From an uncultured Ruminococcus sp. (lineage in GTDB: Bacteria; Bacillota; Clostridia; Oscillospirales; CAG-382), in the NCBI GenBank assembly GCA_964487775.1, contig CAZASH010000005.1, forward strand, positions 25,352 to 89,351: a stretch of 64,000 nt of DNA, given 5' to 3'. A program made the translations under genes and the position numbers. The first letter of the stretch is position 1; every line of letters begins with the position of its first letter. The notes beneath the pieces were generated by a model. It did not search any database and was not told where the DNA came from. It saw nothing but the letters and a program-made list of their open reading frames with translations. Of this stretch, positions 9,864 through 58,672 are shown one piece after another.

Positions 9864-9899
9864 ATAATTATTATAATTAATAATGAAGTGAGTTCGAAA

Positions 9900-10176
9900 G
9901 GCTGTCTGAGATAAGAAAACACACGCCGACAAAGAGCGCATTTCGCCCAGCGCTTTGTTGCAGAACCTTGCCATCCGCGTGGGATGGCGTCAGTCCTGCG
10001 CCTCGTGCTGAACAAAATGCCGCCCTTTGTGGTGCGTGGCAGTTTTTAGCGAGAGATTTTGTGTGGCAGCAACCAAAAAGGCGAAGGCGATACTTGACCG
10101 TACCGCCGAGGCTTTTTGGGCAGTTGTCGCACGAAAGATCCGCTAAAAACCGTATGTTTTCTTATCTCAGCCAGCC
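9900..10176. repeat. 277-bp intergenic element bounded by 26-bp imperfect terminal inverted repeats (MITE-like); patchy colinear similarity to the core of the 22.1 kb / 51.6 kb repeats
   Basis: The left end is GGCTGTCTGAGATAAGAAAACACACG (9900-9925). The reverse complement of the right end (10151-10176) is GGCTGGCTGAGATAAGAAAACATACG, matching 24/26. By hand alignment, four colinear blocks resemble the repeat core (for example ccctttgtg..gtggcagtttttagcgag vs cccttgtgt..ggtggattttgcgag). Confidence 0.55.
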
Positions 10177-10219
10177 TTGGCCTTCCTCACTATAAACAAA
10201 ACCAAAGGGAGTGTTATAA

Positions 10220-21513: not shown

Positions 21514-21944
21514 CAAAATTTGAGCGAGTGACAGGCTATGACACCGCAAAGCTGCCTGTCAGAGCGACGTCGGGCAGCGCAGGCTATGACTTCTTTTTAA
21601 ACGAGGATATAGCGCTCGAACCGCACGAGCAGACGGTCATAGACACAGGAATAAGGGCACGCATCGACGACGGCTGGTTTTTGATGCTCTGCCCACGCTC
21701 GGGGCTCGGCTTTAAATATGCCGTCAGGCTCGCCAACACTGTCGGAATAATCGACAGCGACTATTATTTCAGCGACAACGAGGGTCACATCCGTGTCAAG
21801 CTCATCAACGGCGACAAGCCGATAGCGCTTTCAAAGGGCACGGCGTTTGCACAGGGCATATTCGTTCCGTTCGGGATAACCGTCGACGACCAAAGCACCA
21901 CGATCAGAAACGGCGGACTGGGAAGCACGGACGGGCGCAAATAA
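21501..21944 (+). CDS. dut: dUTP diphosphatase
   Basis: GSAGYDF, PRSGLG, GIIDSDY, and C-terminal RNGGLGSTD. It overlaps the end of aroQ by 13 nt. Confidence 0.9.
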   Translation: MQRIAKFERVTGYDTAKLPVRATSGSAGYDFFLNEDIALEPHEQTVIDTGIRARIDDGWFLMLCPRSGLGFKYAVRLANTVGIIDSDYYFSDNEGHIRVKLINGDKPIALSKGTAFAQGIFVPFGITVDDQSTTIRNGGLGSTDGRK

Positions 21945-21945
21945 T

Positions 21946-22343
21946 CAGTTAAGTTGTCGCTGTAGCGACAGTGAAGTTATGCCTTCGGCATAGTGAAGCA
22001 GCGCTTTCAGCGCCGTGAAAAGTGATATTCAGCTAAAGCCGAGTGGTAAGTGATATTGCGCCTCACGGCGCAGTGATATTCACTTCGTGAGATAAGGGAA
22101 GTTTTTGCAAGCAAAAACAATTTATATAACGCACTCAATGGCGAAAACTCGTGCCAACGCTCTGTAGAACACCATTCGCTGTGGTTCAGTCCTTGCCTCC
22201 CTTGTGTAAAGGGAGGTGGATTTTGCGAGCTTTTTTAAAAGCGAGTCAAAAGACGGAAGGATTGTAGGCAACTTCAGTTGCCGTAGAGCCGCAAGCGAAG
22301 CGCTTCACGCAGTTAAGTTGTCGCTGTAGCGACAACTTAACTG
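21946..22343 (+). repeat. Copy A of a ~400-bp hairpin-array intergenic repeat: terminal CAGTTAAGTTGTCGC / GCGACAACTTAACTG inverted ends, tandem short hairpin+AGTGAAG units, and a ~235-bp core
   Basis: It starts 2 nt after the dut stop. The units are TGTCGCTgtAGCGACA-GTGAAG, TGCCttcGGCA-tAGTGAAG, GCGCTttcAGCGC-cGTGAA and GCGCCtcacGGCGC-AGTGAT. The core 22134-22306 is 100% identical to the reverse complement of 51590-51762. A 16-bp-stem hairpin sits at 22310-22343. Confidence 0.85.
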
Positions 22344-22388
22344 CTAACTGCGCCGCAAGGCACAGCGTTGCTTAATTTCGTCAAAGCC

Positions 22389-22425
22389 AAAAAAGAGACC
22401 TTGCTGCGGCAAGATCTCTTTTTGA
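22389..22425 (-). terminator. Terminator downstream of ackA (A/T tracts on both sides, potentially bidirectional)
   Basis: AAAAAAGAGACCTTGC - TGCG - GCAAGATCTCTTTTT, with one mismatch in the stem. Confidence 0.7.
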
Positions 22426-26356: not shown

Positions 26357-27196
26357 ATGCAGGACAATCAGCAAAACATCAACGAAAATATCAATAACGA
26401 CGACGGCGGCCTCGGCGCTCTCGACGGCTTTTATATCGAGGGCACAGAGCAGGCAGAGGGCACAGCACCCGCAGATGCCGATAAAATTGCCGAAAGTGCA
26501 GATAATACCGAAGGTGCAGAAGGTGCCGAAAGCACCGAAATTATCGAAATTATCGAAAATACCGATAATACCGAAAGCACCGAAACTACCCCGAGCACCG
26601 AAAATACAGATGCTTCAGAGAGCGTCACGAGTGCAAAAAAGCCAAAAAAGCAAAAGGGCGCACTCGAGGTGTTTGAATATGTCGAGACCTTCGCCTATGC
26701 CGTGGCGGTCATGGTACTGCTGTTTATGTTCGTTTTCAGATATGTCACGGTCGACGGCACGTCGATGCGTGACACCCTGCAGCACGAGGATAAGCTCATC
26801 ATCAGCAACCTGTTTTATACCCCTGCGACAGGCGATATAGTCGTTATCAACAGGACAGAGAATGCGCAGCCGCTCATCAAGCGTGTTATCGCTACGGGTG
26901 GACAGACTGTCAGAATCGATTTTGAAAATTGGCAGGTCTGGGTCGACGGCATATTGCTCGACGAGGACTATGTCACCTTGCGCTCTGAGATGCCTATGCA
27001 CTCTTATCCTTTTGTCGAGAAATACACCAATTCCGACGGCATATGTGAGTTTGTCGTCGACGACGGCTGCATATTTGCGATGGGCGACAACCGCAACAAT
27101 TCGCTCGACAGCCGCAAATACGGATTTTTTGAATATCACGAGATAGTCGGCAGGGTGGTCATCAGGCTGGCTCCTCGGTTTGGCACGGTGGAATAA
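26357..27196 (+). CDS. lepB: Signal peptidase I with a ~95-aa acidic, repeat-containing N-terminal extension
   Basis: The catalytic Ser box is GTSMRDTL, the Lys box is KRVIATGGQTV, and GDNRNNSLDSR is present. The N-terminus carries TE(N/S)T-type low-complexity repeats. Confidence 0.9.
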   Translation: MQDNQQNINENINNDDGGLGALDGFYIEGTEQAEGTAPADADKIAESADNTEGAEGAESTEIIEIIENTDNTESTETTPSTENTDASESVTSAKKPKKQKGALEVFEYVETFAYAVAVMVLLFMFVFRYVTVDGTSMRDTLQHEDKLIISNLFYTPATGDIVVINRTENAQPLIKRVIATGGQTVRIDFENWQVWVDGILLDEDYVTLRSEMPMHSYPFVEKYTNSDGICEFVVDDGCIFAMGDNRNNSLDSRKYGFFEYHEIVGRVVIRLAPRFGTVE

Positions 27197-51441: not shown

Positions 51442-51508
51442 TGCATATACCTCCCACGAAAGTATATGCAGAGAAGGCCGGAAATGAGCGATTGAAAAAA
51501 GGGATAAT

Positions 51509-51890
51509 GCGCCTTTGGCGCAGTGAAGTTATGCCTTTGGCACAGCGAAGCACTGCTTCACTGTCGCTTTAGCGACAACTTAACTGCGCGAAGCGCTTCG
51601 CTTGCGGCTCTACGGCAACTGAAGTTGCCTACAATCCTTCCGTCTTTTGACTCGCTTTTAAAAAAGCTCGCAAAATCCACCTCCCTTTACACAAGGGAGG
51701 CAAGGACTGAACCACAGCGAATGGTGTTCTACAGAGCGTTGGCACGAGTTTTCGCCATTGAGAGCGCTATATAAATTGTTTTTGCTTGCAAAAACTTCCT
51801 TATCTCGGCGAAGCCGAACTTCACGGCGCGACAGCGCTGCTTCACTGTGCGAAGCACTACTTCACTGTCGCGACAGCGACAACTTAACTG
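51509..51890 (-). repeat. Copy B of the hairpin-array repeat, in inverted orientation relative to copy A
   Basis: 51590-51762 is the exact reverse complement of 22134-22306 (173 bp, hand-verified in 10-nt blocks). Flanking hairpin+GTGAAG units are homologous to those of copy A but differ in number. GCGACAACTTAACTG occurs at 51572-51586 and 51876-51890. Confidence 0.85.
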
Positions 51891-51914
51891 TTCTTTGCCT
51901 GCTATGGCGAAAAT

Positions 51915-52688
51915 TTAACGTTTTCTTTTAAATGCGACCGGTGCTATGATTGCCGCTGCTACAGCGTACAGTGCTGTTGTCAAAAGCGAGACCAAAAACT
52001 TTTGGTCGAGGATGAGTGCGGCGGTCTGTCTTGCGACTGTTACGGCAGGATAAAACGGCAGCAGGCGGCAAAATGCTTCAAACTCGCCCATCTGCTCAAG
52101 TGGCATCCATGCGCCGGAAAGCATCGAGCCGCCCGAAATGATTATCGAGCATATGCCGGGTGCTGCCTTGTCGCTGAAAAGCGAGCCGAATATCATGCCG
52201 AGTGCGATATAAAACAGCACAGTTGGCAAAAGCGTTACAAAGCAGAGCGCTATTCCGCCGATCGAGAGATAGTCTGCGCCTATGAAAAGCGCCACTAAAC
52301 ATCCGCACATAAAGCAGACTGCGGTCTGCAAAAGCGCAATAAGCATTCCTGCCGCAGCGTAGCCGATTAAATAGTCTGCCGAGCTGAGCGGCGAGACATA
52401 AAGCCGCGACAGGAGGCTGGTCGAGCGGTCCTTTGACACGAGAAGCGCCATAAAAAGCATTACAAACGTATAAGAGAAGCAGCAGATCGACGGCGTAAGC
52501 GTGGCAAGCTCGAACATCGGCGTCATTCCGCTCGAAAAGTGGTTGATGGCCGCAAACGTGAAGAGCATTATCACGGGAAACGCTATGCAGAATATTGCAG
52601 ACAGAATGTCGCGCGCTATCTCTTTGATACACCTGCCTGCAAAGTACGACGCTTTCGATTTCTTTTTTGTATTAACGGTCATTCCCAA
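51915..52688 (-). CDS. ABC-2 type transporter permease
   Basis: A 257-aa protein with 6 TM segments, overlapping the upstream ATPase gene by 10 nt. Confidence 0.8.
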   Translation of the reverse strand: MGMTVNTKKKSKASYFAGRCIKEIARDILSAIFCIAFPVIMLFTFAAINHFSSGMTPMFELATLTPSICCFSYTFVMLFMALLVSKDRSTSLLSRLYVSPLSSADYLIGYAAAGMLIALLQTAVCFMCGCLVALFIGADYLSIGGIALCFVTLLPTVLFYIALGMIFGSLFSDKAAPGICSIIISGGSMLSGAWMPLEQMGEFEAFCRLLPFYPAVTVARQTAALILDQKFLVSLLTTALYAVAAAIIAPVAFKRKR

Positions 52689-53401
52689 TCACTCTCCTTG
52701 CCGACGAGCGAAACAAACGCATCCTCGACCGAATTTGTGCCTGTCGTATTCATAAGTTCACTTGGTGTTCCGAGCGCTTTGATAACGCCATTTGACATGA
52801 TGGCGATACGATCGGCGAGCGCTTCTGCCTCTTCAAGATAATGAGTTGTCAGCACGACGGTAACGTCGCCGTGCAGATCTCTTATTATCTCCTGAAGTCC
52901 TCTGCGTGCCATAACGTCGACGCCAAGCGTGGGCTCGTCGAGAAACAGCACCCGAGGGTCTGTTATCAGCGCCATGGCGATAGACAGTCGCCTTTGCTGT
53001 CCGCCCGAAAGCTTTGACGAAAGAGTATCTCGCTTGTCGGCAAGATGCATTTTATCGATCATTTCGTCGATGCTGGCGTTCTCTATGCCGTAGATGCCCG
53101 AAATAAACTCAAGGTTTTCTCTCACGGTGAGCTTTGTTGCTACCGAGGTCTCCTGCGGTGAAACGGCGATTAGCGGCTTGATGCGGTCGTATTGCTTTGA
53201 AATGTCCATGCCGAGTATTGATATCCTGCCCTCGGTCGGCTTAGTGAGCCCTGTCAGCATTCGGATGAGCGTCGTCTTGCCTGCGCCGTTCTGCCCGAGC
53301 AAGGCAAACAGTTCGCCCTCGTTTATCTCGAGATCGACATGATCTACCGCTTTAACATCTCCATAGGCTTTGCAAAGACCTTCAGCTGTTATCGCTCTCA
53401 T
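52679..53401 (-). CDS. ABC transporter ATP-binding protein
   Basis: LLGQNGAGKTT, LSGGQQRRLSIAMAL, LFLDEPTLGVD. Confidence 0.92.
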   Translation of the reverse strand: MRAITAEGLCKAYGDVKAVDHVDLEINEGELFALLGQNGAGKTTLIRMLTGLTKPTEGRISILGMDISKQYDRIKPLIAVSPQETSVATKLTVRENLEFISGIYGIENASIDEMIDKMHLADKRDTLSSKLSGGQQRRLSIAMALITDPRVLFLDEPTLGVDVMARRGLQEIIRDLHGDVTVVLTTHYLEEAEALADRIAIMSNGVIKALGTPSELMNTTGTNSVEDAFVSLVGKESDWE

Positions 53402-53600
53402 CGGTATGCTCCTCTCTGAAAAGCCTGTCTGCGGCTTTGTCCATTATGCCGGAAGGCAAAATCGCAATCCCGCGGCGTGTGTCGGCGAGGACTATCAACG
53501 TGTCGCCTGCCGAAATGCCAAATAGATCTCTGACCTCTTTGGGAATAACTATCTGTCCTTTTTCGCCGACCTTGGCGGCACCTGCATATCTTTTTGCCAT
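53382..53600 (-). CDS. AbrB/MazE/SpoVT-type DNA-binding domain protein
   Basis: KVGEKGQIVIPKEVRDLFGISAGDTLIVLAD swapped-hairpin motif. It overlaps the ATPase gene by 20 nt. Confidence 0.75.
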   Translation of the reverse strand: MAKRYAGAAKVGEKGQIVIPKEVRDLFGISAGDTLIVLADTRRGIAILPSGIMDKAADRLFREEHTDESDNS

Positions 53601-53723
53601 TTTTAATACCTCTTTGTGTGTTTTTTGATGCGATGAGTATAATTAGTATGAAAAGTATGATTTGTATAACTGATTATATCACCTAAAATTAATGGCAACA
53701 ATAGTTATTTTAACAGATTTCTA

Positions 53724-56935: not shown

Positions 56936-57619
56936 ATGCTTTCAGCACTGATAAGGTTTATAACGAGGTTTGTATCGCTGTTTCTGCGCACGTCGTCGGG
57001 GTCGTTTCCAAAGCAGCTTTCGGCGTCGGAGGAGCGCGAGTTGTTTGCTCTTGCGCGTTCGGGCGATCGCAATGCACGCAAGCGCATAATCGAGTGCAAC
57101 ATGAGGCTCGTCGCACACGTCGTCAAGAAATATTATGTCGGCGCAGACGATCAAGAAGAGCTTGTTTCTGTCGGCACTGTCGGGCTGATCAAGGCGGTCG
57201 ATTCGTTTGACAGCACCAAGGGCGCGCGGCTTGCGACATATGCGGCGAAGTGCATACAAAACGAGATACTTATGTACTTCAGAGCGCAGAAAAAGTATGC
57301 GTGCGAGGTGGGACTGTCTGAGGCGGTGGATGTCGACAAGGACGGAAATCCGCTGACCTACATCGACATTCTTGCGGCTGATGACGACGTTTTTGAAACG
57401 ATCTCAGAGCTCGATATGCGCTTTGCTCTGGTCGAGGCGATCAGAAACGCATTGACAGAGCGCGAAAAAGAGATCATCGTCCTGCGCATGGGAATGCACG
57501 GCAAGCCGTTGCCGCAGCGCGCGGTCGCAGAAAAGCTCGGTATTTCACGCTCGTATGTTTCACGCATCGAAAAGCAGGCAACCGACAAATTGCGCAGGTA
57601 TCTGATCGAGAAGAAATAA
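56936..57619 (+). CDS. sigK: Sporulation sigma factor K (pro-sigma-K), apparently intact
   Basis: The ATG at 56936 follows GGGGGAA. The hydrophobic pro-sequence is MLSALIRFITRFVSLFLRTSSGSFPKQLSASEE. NMRLVAHVVKKYY resembles SigK (RLVAHIVKKF) rather than SigE. Region 4.2 is LGISRSYVSRIEKQA. Confidence 0.88.
   Translation: MLSALIRFITRFVSLFLRTSSGSFPKQLSASEERELFALARSGDRNARKRIIECNMRLVAHVVKKYYVGADDQEELVSVGTVGLIKAVDSFDSTKGARLATYAAKCIQNEILMYFRAQKKYACEVGLSEAVDVDKDGNPLTYIDILAADDDVFETISELDMRFALVEAIRNALTEREKEIIVLRMGMHGKPLPQRAVAEKLGISRSYVSRIEKQATDKLRRYLIEKK
57518..57558 (+). repeat. Copy 1 (inside sigK) of a 41-bp exact direct repeat
   Basis: CGCGCGGTCGCAGAAAAGCTCGGTATTTCACGCTCGTATGT is identical to 58632-58672, and the flanking bases differ on both sides. 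Confidence 0.95.
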
Positions 57620-58631: not shown

Positions 58632-58672
58632 CGCGCGGTCGCAGAAAAGCTCGGTATTTCACGCTCGTATGT
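58632..58672 (+). repeat. Copy 2 of the 41-bp sigK-derived direct repeat, at the left border of the AT-rich element (candidate att core)
   Basis: It is identical to 57518-57558. Read in the sigK frame it continues ...SRSYV-YNIC-stop. Confidence 0.95.

What the first reader, a model, noticed from the sequence alone, without database searches (positions are those of the whole stretch)
21946..22343. Modular hairpin-array intergenic repeat (REP/BIME-like) not explained by any gene
Starting 2 nt after the dut stop there is a ~400-bp non-coding element with three parts. (a) The termini are CAGTTAAGTTGTCGC and its reverse complement GCGACAACTTAACTG, and the right one is part of a 16-bp-stem perfect hairpin at 22310-22343. 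(b) Next comes a tandem array of ~20-30-nt units, each a short GC hairpin followed by a conserved (N)AGTGAAG / AGTGATATT word. Examples are TGCCttcGGCA-tAGTGAAG, GCGCTttcAGCGC-cGTGAA and GCGCCtcacGGCGC-AGTGAT. (c) Last is a ~235-bp core with further hairpins (GTTTTTGCaaGCAAAAAC, CCTCCCTTgtgtAAGGGAGG, GGCAACTtcAGTTGCC). A second copy at 51509-51890 has the same plan but a different number of units. A conserved word next to each palindrome resembles REP sequences recognised by RAYT (IS200/IS605-like Y1) transposases, but the core could also be a structured sRNA or a 3'-UTR element. In both copies the element lies in sense orientation downstream of a gene.
Basis: seen in the sequence. Interest (0 to 1): 0.65.

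Follow-up and report, generated by a model that had tools for sequence, protein, structure and literature searches.

The report
Gut-1-like mosaic hairpin repeat element
A ~400-bp non-coding repeat found twice in this window is built from short "conserved word + variable GC hairpin" modules. Its array is a divergent relative of the orphan Gut-1 RNA motif, and it behaves like a selfish DNA-level mosaic repeat rather than a gene or a classical REP.

Summary
Window 21946-22343 (+) and 51509-51890 (-) share a 238-nt core at 98% identity. Both begin with CAGTTAAGTT+hairpin followed by AGTGAAG/AGTGATATT+hairpin units, and both start 1 and 24 nt after a co-oriented gene's stop codon.

The array matches Rfam Gut-1 (RF01706) full length, with E-values of 1e-6 and 2e-7, but scores 41 and 44 bits against a gathering score of 50. 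The core carries one unit of a second, unnamed repeat (GCCTCCCTTGTGTAAAGGGAGGTG-hairpin-CGGAGGGATTGT) that recurs in gut viral contigs.

Close relatives lack the array and core at both loci.

I fetched 132 canonical Gut-1 loci. They are ~190-nt palindromic double arrays, and most sit directly after an intrinsic terminator. Their loops read C-TNC-G, which gives the stable DNA mini-hairpin c-GNA-g on the other strand. About a quarter are followed by a four-helix-bundle (PF05635) gene.

Best reading: a non-autonomous mosaic repeat (BIME/REPIN/MITE-like) acting through single-stranded DNA hairpins, with the trans-acting factor unidentified. I found no RAYT, promoter, terminator or ORF. I classify it as a new variant of a known but uncharacterised kind.

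The parts
21946..22343 (+). Copy 1 of the composite element (398 nt), lying between the dut stop codon (ends 21944) and the bidirectional terminator at about 22388-22424
21946..21970 (+). Terminal word CAGTTAAGTT plus hairpin 1 (GTCGC-TGTA-GCGAC) plus A. This 25-nt block recurs at 22310-22334 and, on the minus strand, at 51866-51890 and 51562-51586
   Evidence: D5, I7, I9
21946..22090 (+). Array of six word+hairpin units (words AGTGAAG, CGTGAA, AGTGATATT). The first 81 nt match Rfam Gut-1 full length at 41.0 bits, E = 1e-6, below the gathering score of 50
   Evidence: sequence
22091..22309 (+). Non-coding core. It lies within the 238-nt block (22097-22334) that is 98% identical to copy 2 and holds hairpins of 8-2-8, 8-5-8, 6-2-6 and 7-2-7 nt
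   Evidence: (I1)
22195..22265 (+). One unit of a second repeat family inside the core: GCCTCCCTTGTGTAAAGGGAGGTG, then a variable hairpin, then CGGAAGGATTGT
   Evidence: The hairpin differs between strains
22310..22343 (.). Perfect 15-4-15 terminal palindrome (terminal word + hairpin 1 + inverted terminal word). Its right half pairs with 21946-21960 and closes the whole element. It is orthologous to the single decayed unit in relative L233
51805..51890 (-). Copy 2 array of four units. Window 51813-51890 matches Rfam Gut-1 full length at 44.3 bits, E = 1.8e-7
51587..51804 (-). Copy 2 core. It carries the family-2 unit at 51631-51701
51562..51586 (-). Second forward terminal word + hairpin 1 of copy 2 (direct repeat of 51866-51890)
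   Evidence: (D3, I3)
51509..51552 (+). Two word+hairpin units on the opposite strand (GCGCC-TTT-GGCGC AGTGAAGTTA TGCC-TTT-GGCA CAGCGAAGCA). Weak Gut-1 match of 17.7 bits

Best explanation
The element is a non-coding, non-autonomous mosaic repeat. Its building blocks are short modules, each a 7-10-nt conserved word next to a short GC hairpin whose sequence is free but whose palindromy is kept.

An array of such modules begins with a variant terminal word (CAGTTAAGTT against the internal CAGTGAAGTT). That array forms one end. An inverted terminal word or an inverted array forms the other end. The space between them holds cargo, which here includes a unit of a second repeat family.

I infer that it acts at the DNA level. 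The hairpins would form in single-stranded DNA, or as cruciforms, and the words would be read by a trans-acting protein encoded elsewhere. Copies would arise and be remodelled by insertion or exchange of modules at the word-hairpin junctions. The host needs no function from it.

Shown here:
- the anatomy of both copies
- kinship with the Gut-1 motif
- kinship of part of the core with a second repeat family
- absence of the array and core from close relatives at both loci
- the polarity of the hairpin loops

Inferred:
- the single-stranded DNA mechanism
- mobility
- the identity of the protein; a PF05635 four-helix-bundle protein is only a lead from the canonical relatives
For: 1. Two copies of a 238-nt core at 98% identity sit at unrelated loci 29 kb apart, in opposite orientation.

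2. Short-read contigs of the same species break 31-48 nt into copy 1 and at the core edge of copy 2, as expected of repeats.

3. Close relatives lack the array and core.
- L233/L234 (dut 95% identical, same gene order) have only a 57-nt remnant. It holds one decayed unit where the window has its terminal palindrome.
- L241-L248 (flanking enzyme 97% identical) lack a 2.3-kb block that ends with copy 2.

4. The array matches Rfam Gut-1 full length.

5. Hairpin stems differ between the two copies, and between strains, while the palindromy is kept.
- TGCC/GGCA against GTGC/GCAC.
- TCAC/GTGA against TCGGC/GCCGA.
- A core hairpin rebuilt in strain L110.

6. The element folds equally well on both strands. 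It has no promoter, terminator or conserved ORF.

7. In 108 distinct canonical relatives, the triloops read on the word strand are TNC in 204 of 242 (left half) and 64 of 120 (right half).
- The closing pair is 5'C-3'G in 94-96%.
- The right half mirrors the left: TTC/TGC on the left against GAA/GCA on the right.
- The complementary strand therefore carries c-GNA-g, the stable DNA mini-hairpin motif (PMC13037366, PMC3201870).
- The window's triloops obey the same rule (four TTC and two TTT, all closed by C-G). So do the family-2 hairpins.

8. At one canonical locus the ~85-nt interior of the left module is replaced while both flanks stay 100% identical.

9. The closing inverted repeat of canonical modules covaries with no broken pair in 28 sequences.
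Against: - Only two copies are known. The genome-wide copy number is unknown. The exact terminal pattern had no hit in GTDB representative genomes, JGI metagenomes or IMG/VR.
- Neither locus gives a clean empty site. One relative has a remnant, and the other difference is a 2.3-kb replacement. Loss by deletion is therefore as possible as gain by insertion.
- All sampled strains of the species carry both copies, so nothing shows current mobility.
- There is no target-site duplication and no common flanking tetranucleotide.
- No transposase or other candidate protein is in the window.
- Both window copies are sense and close behind a stop codon. Copy 1 lies upstream of the terminator, so both are probably transcribed, and an RNA role is not excluded.
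- The C-TNC-G loops would also give UNC triloops in RNA, and some fit cUUCGg.
Confidence: 0.5

Rival explanations
1. Structured RNA element. The array (Gut-1-like) and core are transcribed as the 3' UTR or intercistronic part of the upstream gene's mRNA. They would act as a 3'-end stabiliser, a processing site or a protein sponge that binds through the repeated single-stranded GUGAAG words.
For: - Both copies are sense, 1 and 24 nt after a stop codon, and copy 1 precedes the terminator.
- Weinberg et al. scored Gut-1 as certainly RNA, on covariation.
- Several loops fit cUUCGg.
- The fold has z = -8.2.
Against: - The reverse strand folds equally well.
- Most canonical relatives sit directly after an intrinsic terminator (hairpin + T-run in 50 of 70 contexts, against 1% at random positions), so read-through would be low.
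- Their right halves are mirror images whose loop preference sits on the other strand. A single transcript does not explain that.
- No promoter or terminator lies inside the element.
- The stems leave 3-nt loops, which are poor in RNA but, as c-GNA-g, very stable in DNA.
Confidence: 0.2
2. Classical REP/BIME. The hairpin units are recognised, cut and rejoined by a single-copy RAYT (TnpA-REP, a Y1 HUH enzyme) or an IS200/IS605-type TnpA encoded elsewhere in the genome.
For: - The grammar of hairpin plus adjacent conserved word is what HUH enzymes read.
- There is no target-site duplication.
- The structure is a mosaic, with units in both orientations.
- The core holds three GTAG motifs, two of them flanking a GC hairpin (22265-22287; sequence).
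Against: - The array word is not GT[AG]G (defining features from PMC6006769).
- No IS200-like TnpA was found by tblastn in the window or in 3.7 Mb of related loci. The query was recalled from memory and is insensitive to RAYTs.
- Hairpin stems differ within a single array, unlike a REP family.
Confidence: 0.12
3. Binding array for a small four-helix-bundle (S23p/Avd-like, PF05635) protein. The pentameric protein would bind the repeated word+hairpin units. 'Solo' arrays such as the window's would be orphan sites of that system.
For: - In 745 kb around canonical arrays, all 25 PF05635 motif hits lie sense, 200-500 nt downstream of an array centre.
- 15 of 55 distinct contexts are followed by such a gene.
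- Family assignment: PF05635 at 90.6 bits and TIGR02436 at 101.5 bits.
- The family forms homopentamers, is encoded in 23S rRNA intervening sequences that have long terminal inverted repeats, and includes the Avd protein of diversity-generating retroelements (DGRs) (PMC4990558, PMC10053308).
Against: - No such gene or remnant is in the window or in loci of the same species or close relatives.
- The link is shown only for the GTGAAAT subfamily.
- The gene lies outside the palindromic array and has its own promoter.
- The family has no known sequence-specific binding or catalytic activity.
Confidence: 0.12
4. Inert product of local duplication and gene conversion. On this view the two copies are a segmental duplicate kept similar by conversion, the hairpins arise from template-switch (quasipalindrome) mutation, and nothing is mobile or functional.
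For: - Only two copies are known, and both are fixed in all sampled strains.
- In the L110 variant one arm of a direct repeat has been turned into its reverse complement, which is typical of templated mutation.
Against: - The array grammar is shared with hundreds of elements in unrelated gut bacteria and phage contigs.
- The loop and closing-pair rules are too regular.
- The flanks of the two copies are unrelated.
Confidence: 0.06

Closest known systems
Gut-1 RNA motif (Rfam RF01706; Weinberg et al. 2010, PMC2864571)
   Same: - Three or more short GC hairpins are separated by a GUGAA-type word, and the first word is a variant.
- The match to the model is full length, with E = 1e-6 and 2e-7.
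- The loop rule is the same (C-TNC-G).
- It is found in gut Clostridia-type bacteria.
- Its function is likewise unknown.
   Different: - It scores below the gathering threshold (41 and 44 bits against 50).
- The words are AGTGAAG and AGTGATATT, not GTGAAAT.
- It is not placed after a terminator T-run.
- It carries a 238-nt core.
- It lacks the regular array of four inverted words seen in canonical elements.
REP / BIME / REPIN elements with RAYT (E. coli, Pseudomonas; PMC6006769)
   Same: - It is extragenic and lies at the 3' ends of genes.
- It has GC hairpins with an adjacent conserved word.
- It has units in both orientations that form mosaics.
- It has no target-site duplication.
   Different: - It has no GT[AG]G guide at the array hairpins.
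- The stems vary within one array.
- The units are arranged as direct arrays, not as alternating doublets.
- No RAYT has been identified.
BOX elements of Streptococcus pneumoniae (boxA-boxB(n)-boxC). This comparison is from my own knowledge and was not checked here
   Same: - It is a modular non-coding repeat.
- The number of internal units varies.
- The end modules are complementary.
- It has no known transposase.
- It lies in transcribed intergenic positions.
   Different: - There is no sequence similarity.
- BOX units are 45-59 nt long and are conserved in sequence.
- The units here are about 22 nt long, and only the word is conserved.
MITEs and transposon ends with multiple subterminal binding sites (Tn7, Mu, hAT/CACTA types; from my own knowledge)
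   Same: - It has 15-bp terminal inverted repeats in copy 1.
- It has direct repeats of a word inside each end, with a distinct terminal-most site.
- It has no coding capacity.
   Different: - It has no target-site duplication.
- The spacers between words are hairpins that covary.
- No autonomous parent was found.
23S rRNA intervening sequences that encode S23p (PF05635) (PMC4990558)
   Same: This likeness holds only for the canonical relatives. They are short elements with long terminal inverted repeats, associated with a four-helix-bundle gene and placed at hairpins.
   Different: - The window element has no such gene.
- It is not in rRNA.
- No link to RNase III processing was tested.
Unnamed repeat GCCTCCCTTGTGTAAAGGGAGGTG-hairpin-CGGAGGGATTGT (found here in 27 IMG/VR contigs)
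   Same: The window core carries one unit. It has the exact 19-mer and the downstream word CGGAAGGATTGT, with a variable hairpin between them.
   Different: - In the viral contigs the units are 50-60 nt long, often form inverted doublets, and have c-GNA-g hairpins.
- The window's hairpin is longer (29-35 nt) and AT-rich.

Membership tests
Gut-1 RNA (RF01706) | Full-length match to the covariance model: three hairpins separated by GUGAAAU-type words | tested here: met
   Model positions 1-77 of 77 are aligned at 21946-22026 (+) and 51813-51890 (-), with few non-canonical pairs
Gut-1 RNA (RF01706) | Score at or above Rfam's gathering score (50 bits) | tested here: not met
   41.0 and 44.3 bits. 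The window has no hit at gathering. Canonical loci score 75-90 bits
Gut-1 RNA (RF01706) | Canonical inter-hairpin word GUGAAAU | tested here: not met
   The window's words are AGTGAAG, CGTGAA and AGTGATATT. A GTGATATT subtype does occur among Weinberg's seed sequences
Gut-1-type palindromic array element (features derived here from 132 loci) | Terminal word directly follows an intrinsic-terminator hairpin and T-run | tested here: not met
   Canonical elements: 61 of 70 contexts have a T-run and 50 of 70 have hairpin plus T-run. The window's left flanks are AAATAAT and CAAAGAA, with no hairpin
Gut-1-type palindromic array element (features derived here from 132 loci) | Terminal word plus the 5' arm of hairpin 1 is repeated in inverted form and closes the module | tested here: met
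   Copy 1: 21946-21960 pairs with 22329-22343 (15 bp). Copy 2 lacks it. The canonical closing stem covaries with no broken pair in 28 sequences
Gut-1-type palindromic array element (features derived here from 132 loci) | Hairpin triloops read T-N-C and are closed by 5'C-3'G on the word strand | tested here: met
   Window: four TTC and two TTT triloops, all closed by C-G (sequences). Family: 204 of 242 triloops are TNC and 96% have C-G closing pairs
Gut-1-type palindromic array element (features derived here from 132 loci) | A PF05635 four-helix-bundle gene lies next to a fraction of the copies | tested here: not met
   None found in the window or in loci of the same species or close relatives (tblastn; HMM best E = 1.2). 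The rest of the genome could not be searched
REP/BIME with RAYT | Conserved GT[AG]G tetranucleotide 5' of the hairpin foot (PMC6006769) | tested here: not met
   The array hairpins are preceded by ...AAGTT...AGTTA...AGCA and ...ATATT. GTAG occurs only in the core, three times
REP/BIME with RAYT | A single-copy Y1 transposase gene flanked by the repeats (a REPtron) | tested here: inconclusive
   No IS200-like hit in the window or in 3.7 Mb of loci. The query was recalled from memory, BLAST misses distant RAYTs, and the genome is not available
REP/BIME with RAYT | Tens to hundreds of copies per genome | not testable with these tools
   Two copies in about 74 kb examined. The contig breaks suggest more copies. 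No genome assembly was reachable
MITE of a DDE transposon | Terminal inverted repeats plus a target-site duplication | tested here: not met
   Copy 1 has a 15-bp terminal inverted repeat, but its flanks AATAAT / CTAACT are not duplicated. Copy 2 has no inverted terminus
IS200/IS605-derived PATE | Different subterminal hairpins at the left and right ends on one strand, with a constant target tetra- or pentanucleotide 5' of the left end | tested here: not met
   The same hairpin occurs at both ends. The left flanks differ (AATAAT, AAAGAA, TTCACG, TTCGCG)
Independent sRNA gene | Own promoter and terminator that bound a discrete transcript | tested here: not met
   No sigma-70-type promoter on the sense strand and no intrinsic terminator inside the element. 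Transcription itself was not testable

The most novel reading that the evidence does not exclude
Gut-1-type arrays, this divergent one included, may not be sRNAs. They may be the single-stranded-DNA hairpin ends of a previously unrecognised class of small mobile or exchangeable cassettes in gut Firmicutes and their phages. On this reading the cassettes home to the T-run of intrinsic terminators, often behind tRNA genes. They would be serviced by the orphan S23p/Avd-like four-helix-bundle protein family (PF05635). That would give this family its first function outside diversity-generating retroelements (DGRs), and it would explain the intervening sequences of 23S rRNA.
Probability: 0.15. Interest if true: 0.85.

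Novelty: new variant of a known kind. Interest (0 to 1): 0.55.

Why it matters
Gut-1 has been an orphan "RNA motif" since 2010, known only from gut metagenomes and without context or function.

This window shows a divergent member built into a larger mosaic. Following that lead gave concrete, testable context for the whole family:
- The elements are palindromic double arrays, not single three-hairpin RNAs.
- They sit precisely behind terminators, and about a third follow tRNA genes.
- Their loops follow the rule for hyperstable DNA mini-hairpins.
- Their left module can be swapped as a cassette.
- About a quarter are followed by a PF05635 four-helix-bundle gene, another family without a known role.

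If these links hold, a class of selfish DNA and a widespread orphan protein family become open to experiment.

For annotation, such elements should be masked as repeats. They should not be called as sRNA genes, and they explain recurrent contig breaks in metagenome-assembled genomes of gut Clostridia.

Tried and rejected
- Exact terminal pattern CAGTTAAGTTGTCGCNNNNGCGACA: no hit in GTDB representative genomes, IMG/VR or JGI metagenomes.
- blastn of the element against plasmids and phages: no hit.
- Using spurious ORFs in the core to fish for other copies: the 83-aa ORF is not on record and has no homologue. This also argues against coding capacity.
- ackA relatives from GTDB (80 loci, 1.26 Mb): no copy and no Gut-1-like array. 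The nearest relative (91% identical) has broken gene order.
- Loose word patterns (AGTGATATT x3, AGTGAAG x3) in IMG/VR: almost only coding or AT-rich tandem repeats, with one true element, L093.
- Similarity between the window core and the cores next to Weinberg's B-type seed sequences: none above shuffled controls.
- Core as a decayed PF05635 gene: rejected (HMM best E = 1.2).
- Known RNA families in the element or in core-like regions elsewhere: none except Gut-1.
- Integron attC site: the termini fit GTTRRRY / RYYYAAC, but in the reverse order to an attC site. Rejected by inspection.
- Type III toxin-antitoxin RNA array or CRISPR-like array: rejected. There is no adjacent toxin or cas gene, no spacers, and the hairpin sequences are not constant.
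- Walking 10 kb beyond the window's left end: no further copy. The right end could not be extended.

Full report
**1. What is in the window**

Copy 1 spans 21946-22343 on the plus strand. It starts one base after the dut stop codon, which ends at 21944. It ends about 45 nt before a bidirectional terminator shared with the convergent acetate kinase gene. It has three parts:
- An array of six word+hairpin units at 21946-22090.
- A non-coding core.
- A perfect 15-4-15 palindrome at 22310-22343.

The left arm of that palindrome repeats the first 25 nt of the element exactly. Its right arm is the reverse complement of the first 15 nt.

Copy 2 spans 51509-51890 and lies on the minus strand. Its terminal word starts 24 nt after the stop codon of an ABC-2 permease gene on the same strand. 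The element ends about 68 nt before the next gene. It has four units and the same core: 238 nt at 98% identity (I1). After the core comes a second forward terminal word+hairpin. Two units on the opposite strand follow it, rather than the palindrome.

Several tests show this is not chance:
- Six of eight AGTGAAG and all three AGTGATATT in the 64 kb fall inside the two elements.
- The element folds with z = -8.2 on the plus strand and z = -8.15 on the minus strand.

No ORF is shared by the two copies. The longest ORF (83 aa) is not on record and has no homologue among 5.8 billion proteins. No promoter or terminator consensus lies inside the element.

**2. The array is a relative of a described motif**

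Rfam gives no hit at gathering thresholds. With E-value thresholds, both arrays match Gut-1 RNA (RF01706) over the whole 77-position model:

| Copy | Bits | E-value |
|---|---|---|
| Copy 1 | 41.0 | 1e-6 |
| Copy 2 | 44.3 | 1.8e-7 |

The gathering score is 50 bits. The opposite-strand units of copy 2 give a weak third hit.

Gut-1 was described by Weinberg et al. in 2010. It was reported only as a covarying candidate non-coding RNA seen solely in human gut metagenomes. I found no later literature on it.

**3. What Gut-1 elements are**

The original alignment with flanks shows the motif is only half of a larger element (PMC2864571 supplement). A forward array is followed by an inverted array, or in one subtype by a ~290-nt core. 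One contig carries the whole unit as tandem 240-nt repeats.

I designed a pattern that requires two forward words and the central inverted words. All are true elements. Rfam scores them at 75-90 bits. It also scores their right halves on the other strand at 48-54 bits.

The architecture is regular:
- A terminal word (CAAC/CAGT + GAAAT).
- Four forward and four inverted words.
- A left module of about 95 nt, closed by a 12-nt inverted repeat.

The closing repeat covaries without a single broken pair in 28 diverse sequences. Compensatory changes occur in 14 of the 24 predicted pairs.

Genomic placement, counted over 70 distinct contexts:

| Feature immediately upstream of the terminal word | Contexts |
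|---|---|
| T-run | 61 of 70 |
| Hairpin plus T-run (1% at random positions) | 50 of 70 |
| Same-strand tRNA gene within 90 nt | 25 of 70 |

**4. DNA or RNA**

I read each unit on the strand where its word is GTGAAAT.
- In the left half, the triloops are T-N-C in 204 of 242 cases.
- In the right half, they are T-N-C in 64 of 120 cases.
- The closing pair is 5'C-3'G in 94-96%.

On the top strand the left half shows TTC/TGC loops and the right half shows GAA/GCA loops. The two halves are therefore mirror images at the DNA level.

The strand complementary to each word carries c-GNA-g. That is the motif of the extraordinarily stable DNA mini-hairpins, whose stability depends on exactly this closing pair (PMC13037366, PMC3201870).

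All six triloops in the window follow the same rule. The hairpins of the second repeat family (section 5) follow it too. This symmetry, together with the placement behind terminators, fits a DNA-level element better than one transcript. That conclusion is an inference. No experiment backs it.

**5. The core is itself a mosaic**

A 24-nt stretch of the core matched loci fetched for other reasons. The 19-mer GCCTCCCYTGTGTAAAGGG then hit 27 IMG/VR contigs, some with two or three copies.

The unit is GCCTCCCTTGTGTAAAGGGAGGTG, then a variable hairpin, then CGGAGGGATTGT. The hairpin mostly has GAA, GCA or GTA loops closed by C-G. The units often occur as inverted doublets.

The window core has one such unit at 22195-22265 (and at 51631-51701 on the minus strand in copy 2). 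Its variable hairpin is exactly the segment rebuilt in strain L110: GCGAGCTTTTTTAAAAGCGAG becomes GCTCGCGTCAGCGAG. One metagenome contig, L303, is collinear with the core over several blocks. Rfam has no family for this unit.

**6. Evidence on gain, loss and mobility**

All contigs that carry identical flanking proteins have both copies. Many short-read contigs stop 31-48 nt into copy 1, or at the core edge of copy 2.

At the copy 1 locus, a close relative has 95% identical dut and the same gene order. It has only 57 nt in place of the 398-nt element. Those 57 nt hold one decayed terminal word+hairpin+word, matching 28 of 33 positions. It lies in the orientation and position of the window's terminal palindrome.

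At the copy 2 locus, relatives with a 97% identical flanking enzyme lack a 2.3-kb block. The block holds a MazE/AbrB-like gene, two ABC transporter genes and the element.

So the array and core differ between close lineages at both loci. Neither case is a clean empty site, and the direction (gain or loss) is open.

Among canonical elements, L255 and L259 have identical flanks and identical right arrays. The interior of the left module, however, is entirely different. That indicates cassette replacement bounded by the words.

**7. A lead on the partner protein**

Within 745 kb around canonical arrays, 25 hits to a four-helix-bundle motif were found. All 25 lie in sense orientation 200-500 nt downstream of an array centre. 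Of 55 distinct contexts, 15 are followed by such a gene.

The protein is PF05635 / TIGR02436. This is the S23p family encoded in 23S rRNA intervening sequences, and it is related to the Avd protein of diversity-generating retroelements (DGRs). Conservation stops at its stop codon.

No such gene or remnant is in the window or in related loci. No IS200-like transposase was seen anywhere either, although that test was weak.

**8. Verdict**

The finding is a real, non-coding, composite repeat. It works like a BIME/REPIN/MITE-type mosaic. It is a sub-threshold, divergent relative of Gut-1, fused to a unit of a second unnamed repeat family.

The REP/RAYT membership test fails on the guide tetranucleotide, and the transposase part is untested. 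The sRNA-gene reading lacks a promoter and a terminator. A passive 3'-UTR RNA role remains possible for these two copies.

The mechanism, recognition of single-stranded DNA hairpins by an unidentified trans-acting factor, is inferred and not shown.

Noticed in passing
window 9899-10180: A different 282-bp element with 28-bp terminal inverted repeats (AAGGCTGTCTGAGATAAGAAAACACACG) lies between the thymidine kinase and QueT genes. Strain L410 has a clean empty site (GAGTTCGA|GGCCTTCC), and L409 has a 73-nt mini version. No target-site duplication is obvious.
   Followed up: partly
L249-L380 (canonical Gut-1 loci), e.g. L262:657-1225: About a quarter of canonical Gut-1 palindromic arrays are followed, about 100 nt downstream and after a TATAAT-type promoter, by a 115-aa PF05635/TIGR02436 four-helix-bundle gene. 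Every such gene in these loci has an array upstream.
   Followed up: partly
L249-L380: Canonical Gut-1 elements start immediately after the T-run of an intrinsic terminator (50 of 70 contexts). In 25 of 70 contexts they lie within 90 nt of a same-strand tRNA gene.
   Followed up: yes
L255:640-1010 (-) against L259:4380-4750 (+): The two share the same tRNA, terminator, right array and downstream flank at 100% identity, but the ~85-nt interior of the left Gut-1 module is replaced by another version. This points to cassette exchange bounded by the words.
   Followed up: partly
L381-L407; window 22195-22265 and 51631-51701: An unnamed repeat, GCCTCCCTTGTGTAAAGGGAGGTG-hairpin-CGGAGGGATTGT, recurs in 27 gut IMG/VR contigs, often as inverted doublets and in several variant forms. 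It is not in Rfam.
   Followed up: partly
window 51442-53700 (compare L241-L248): A 2.3-kb block (MazE/AbrB-like gene, ABC ATPase, ABC-2 permease, then element copy 2) is absent from relatives whose flanking enzyme is 97% identical. About 70 nt of unrelated sequence takes its place.
   Followed up: partly
L110:2780-2800 against window 51660-51690: Between strains, one core hairpin is rebuilt. The left copy of the direct repeat GCGAGC...GCGAG becomes its reverse complement GCTCGC, which creates a new GC hairpin with a GTCA loop. This looks like a templated (quasipalindrome) mutation.
   Followed up: no
PMC2864571 supplement 95, contig BAAZ01000130: A whole Gut-1 element, including its terminator hairpin, occurs as at least three tandem 240-nt repeats.
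   Followed up: no
window 26475-26606: A 9-nt periodic repeat (GCCGAAAGT-like, about 14 units) is present, probably inside a coding region.
   Followed up: no
window 57518-57558 and 58632-58672: An identical 41-nt stretch occurs in two neighbouring genes. It probably encodes the helix-turn-helix region of paralogous sigma factors.
   Followed up: no
L093:1375-1559: A GTGATATT-type double array lies directly after a phage structural gene in a 4.2-kb IMG/VR contig. This shows that the family also occurs in phage genomes.
   Followed up: partly
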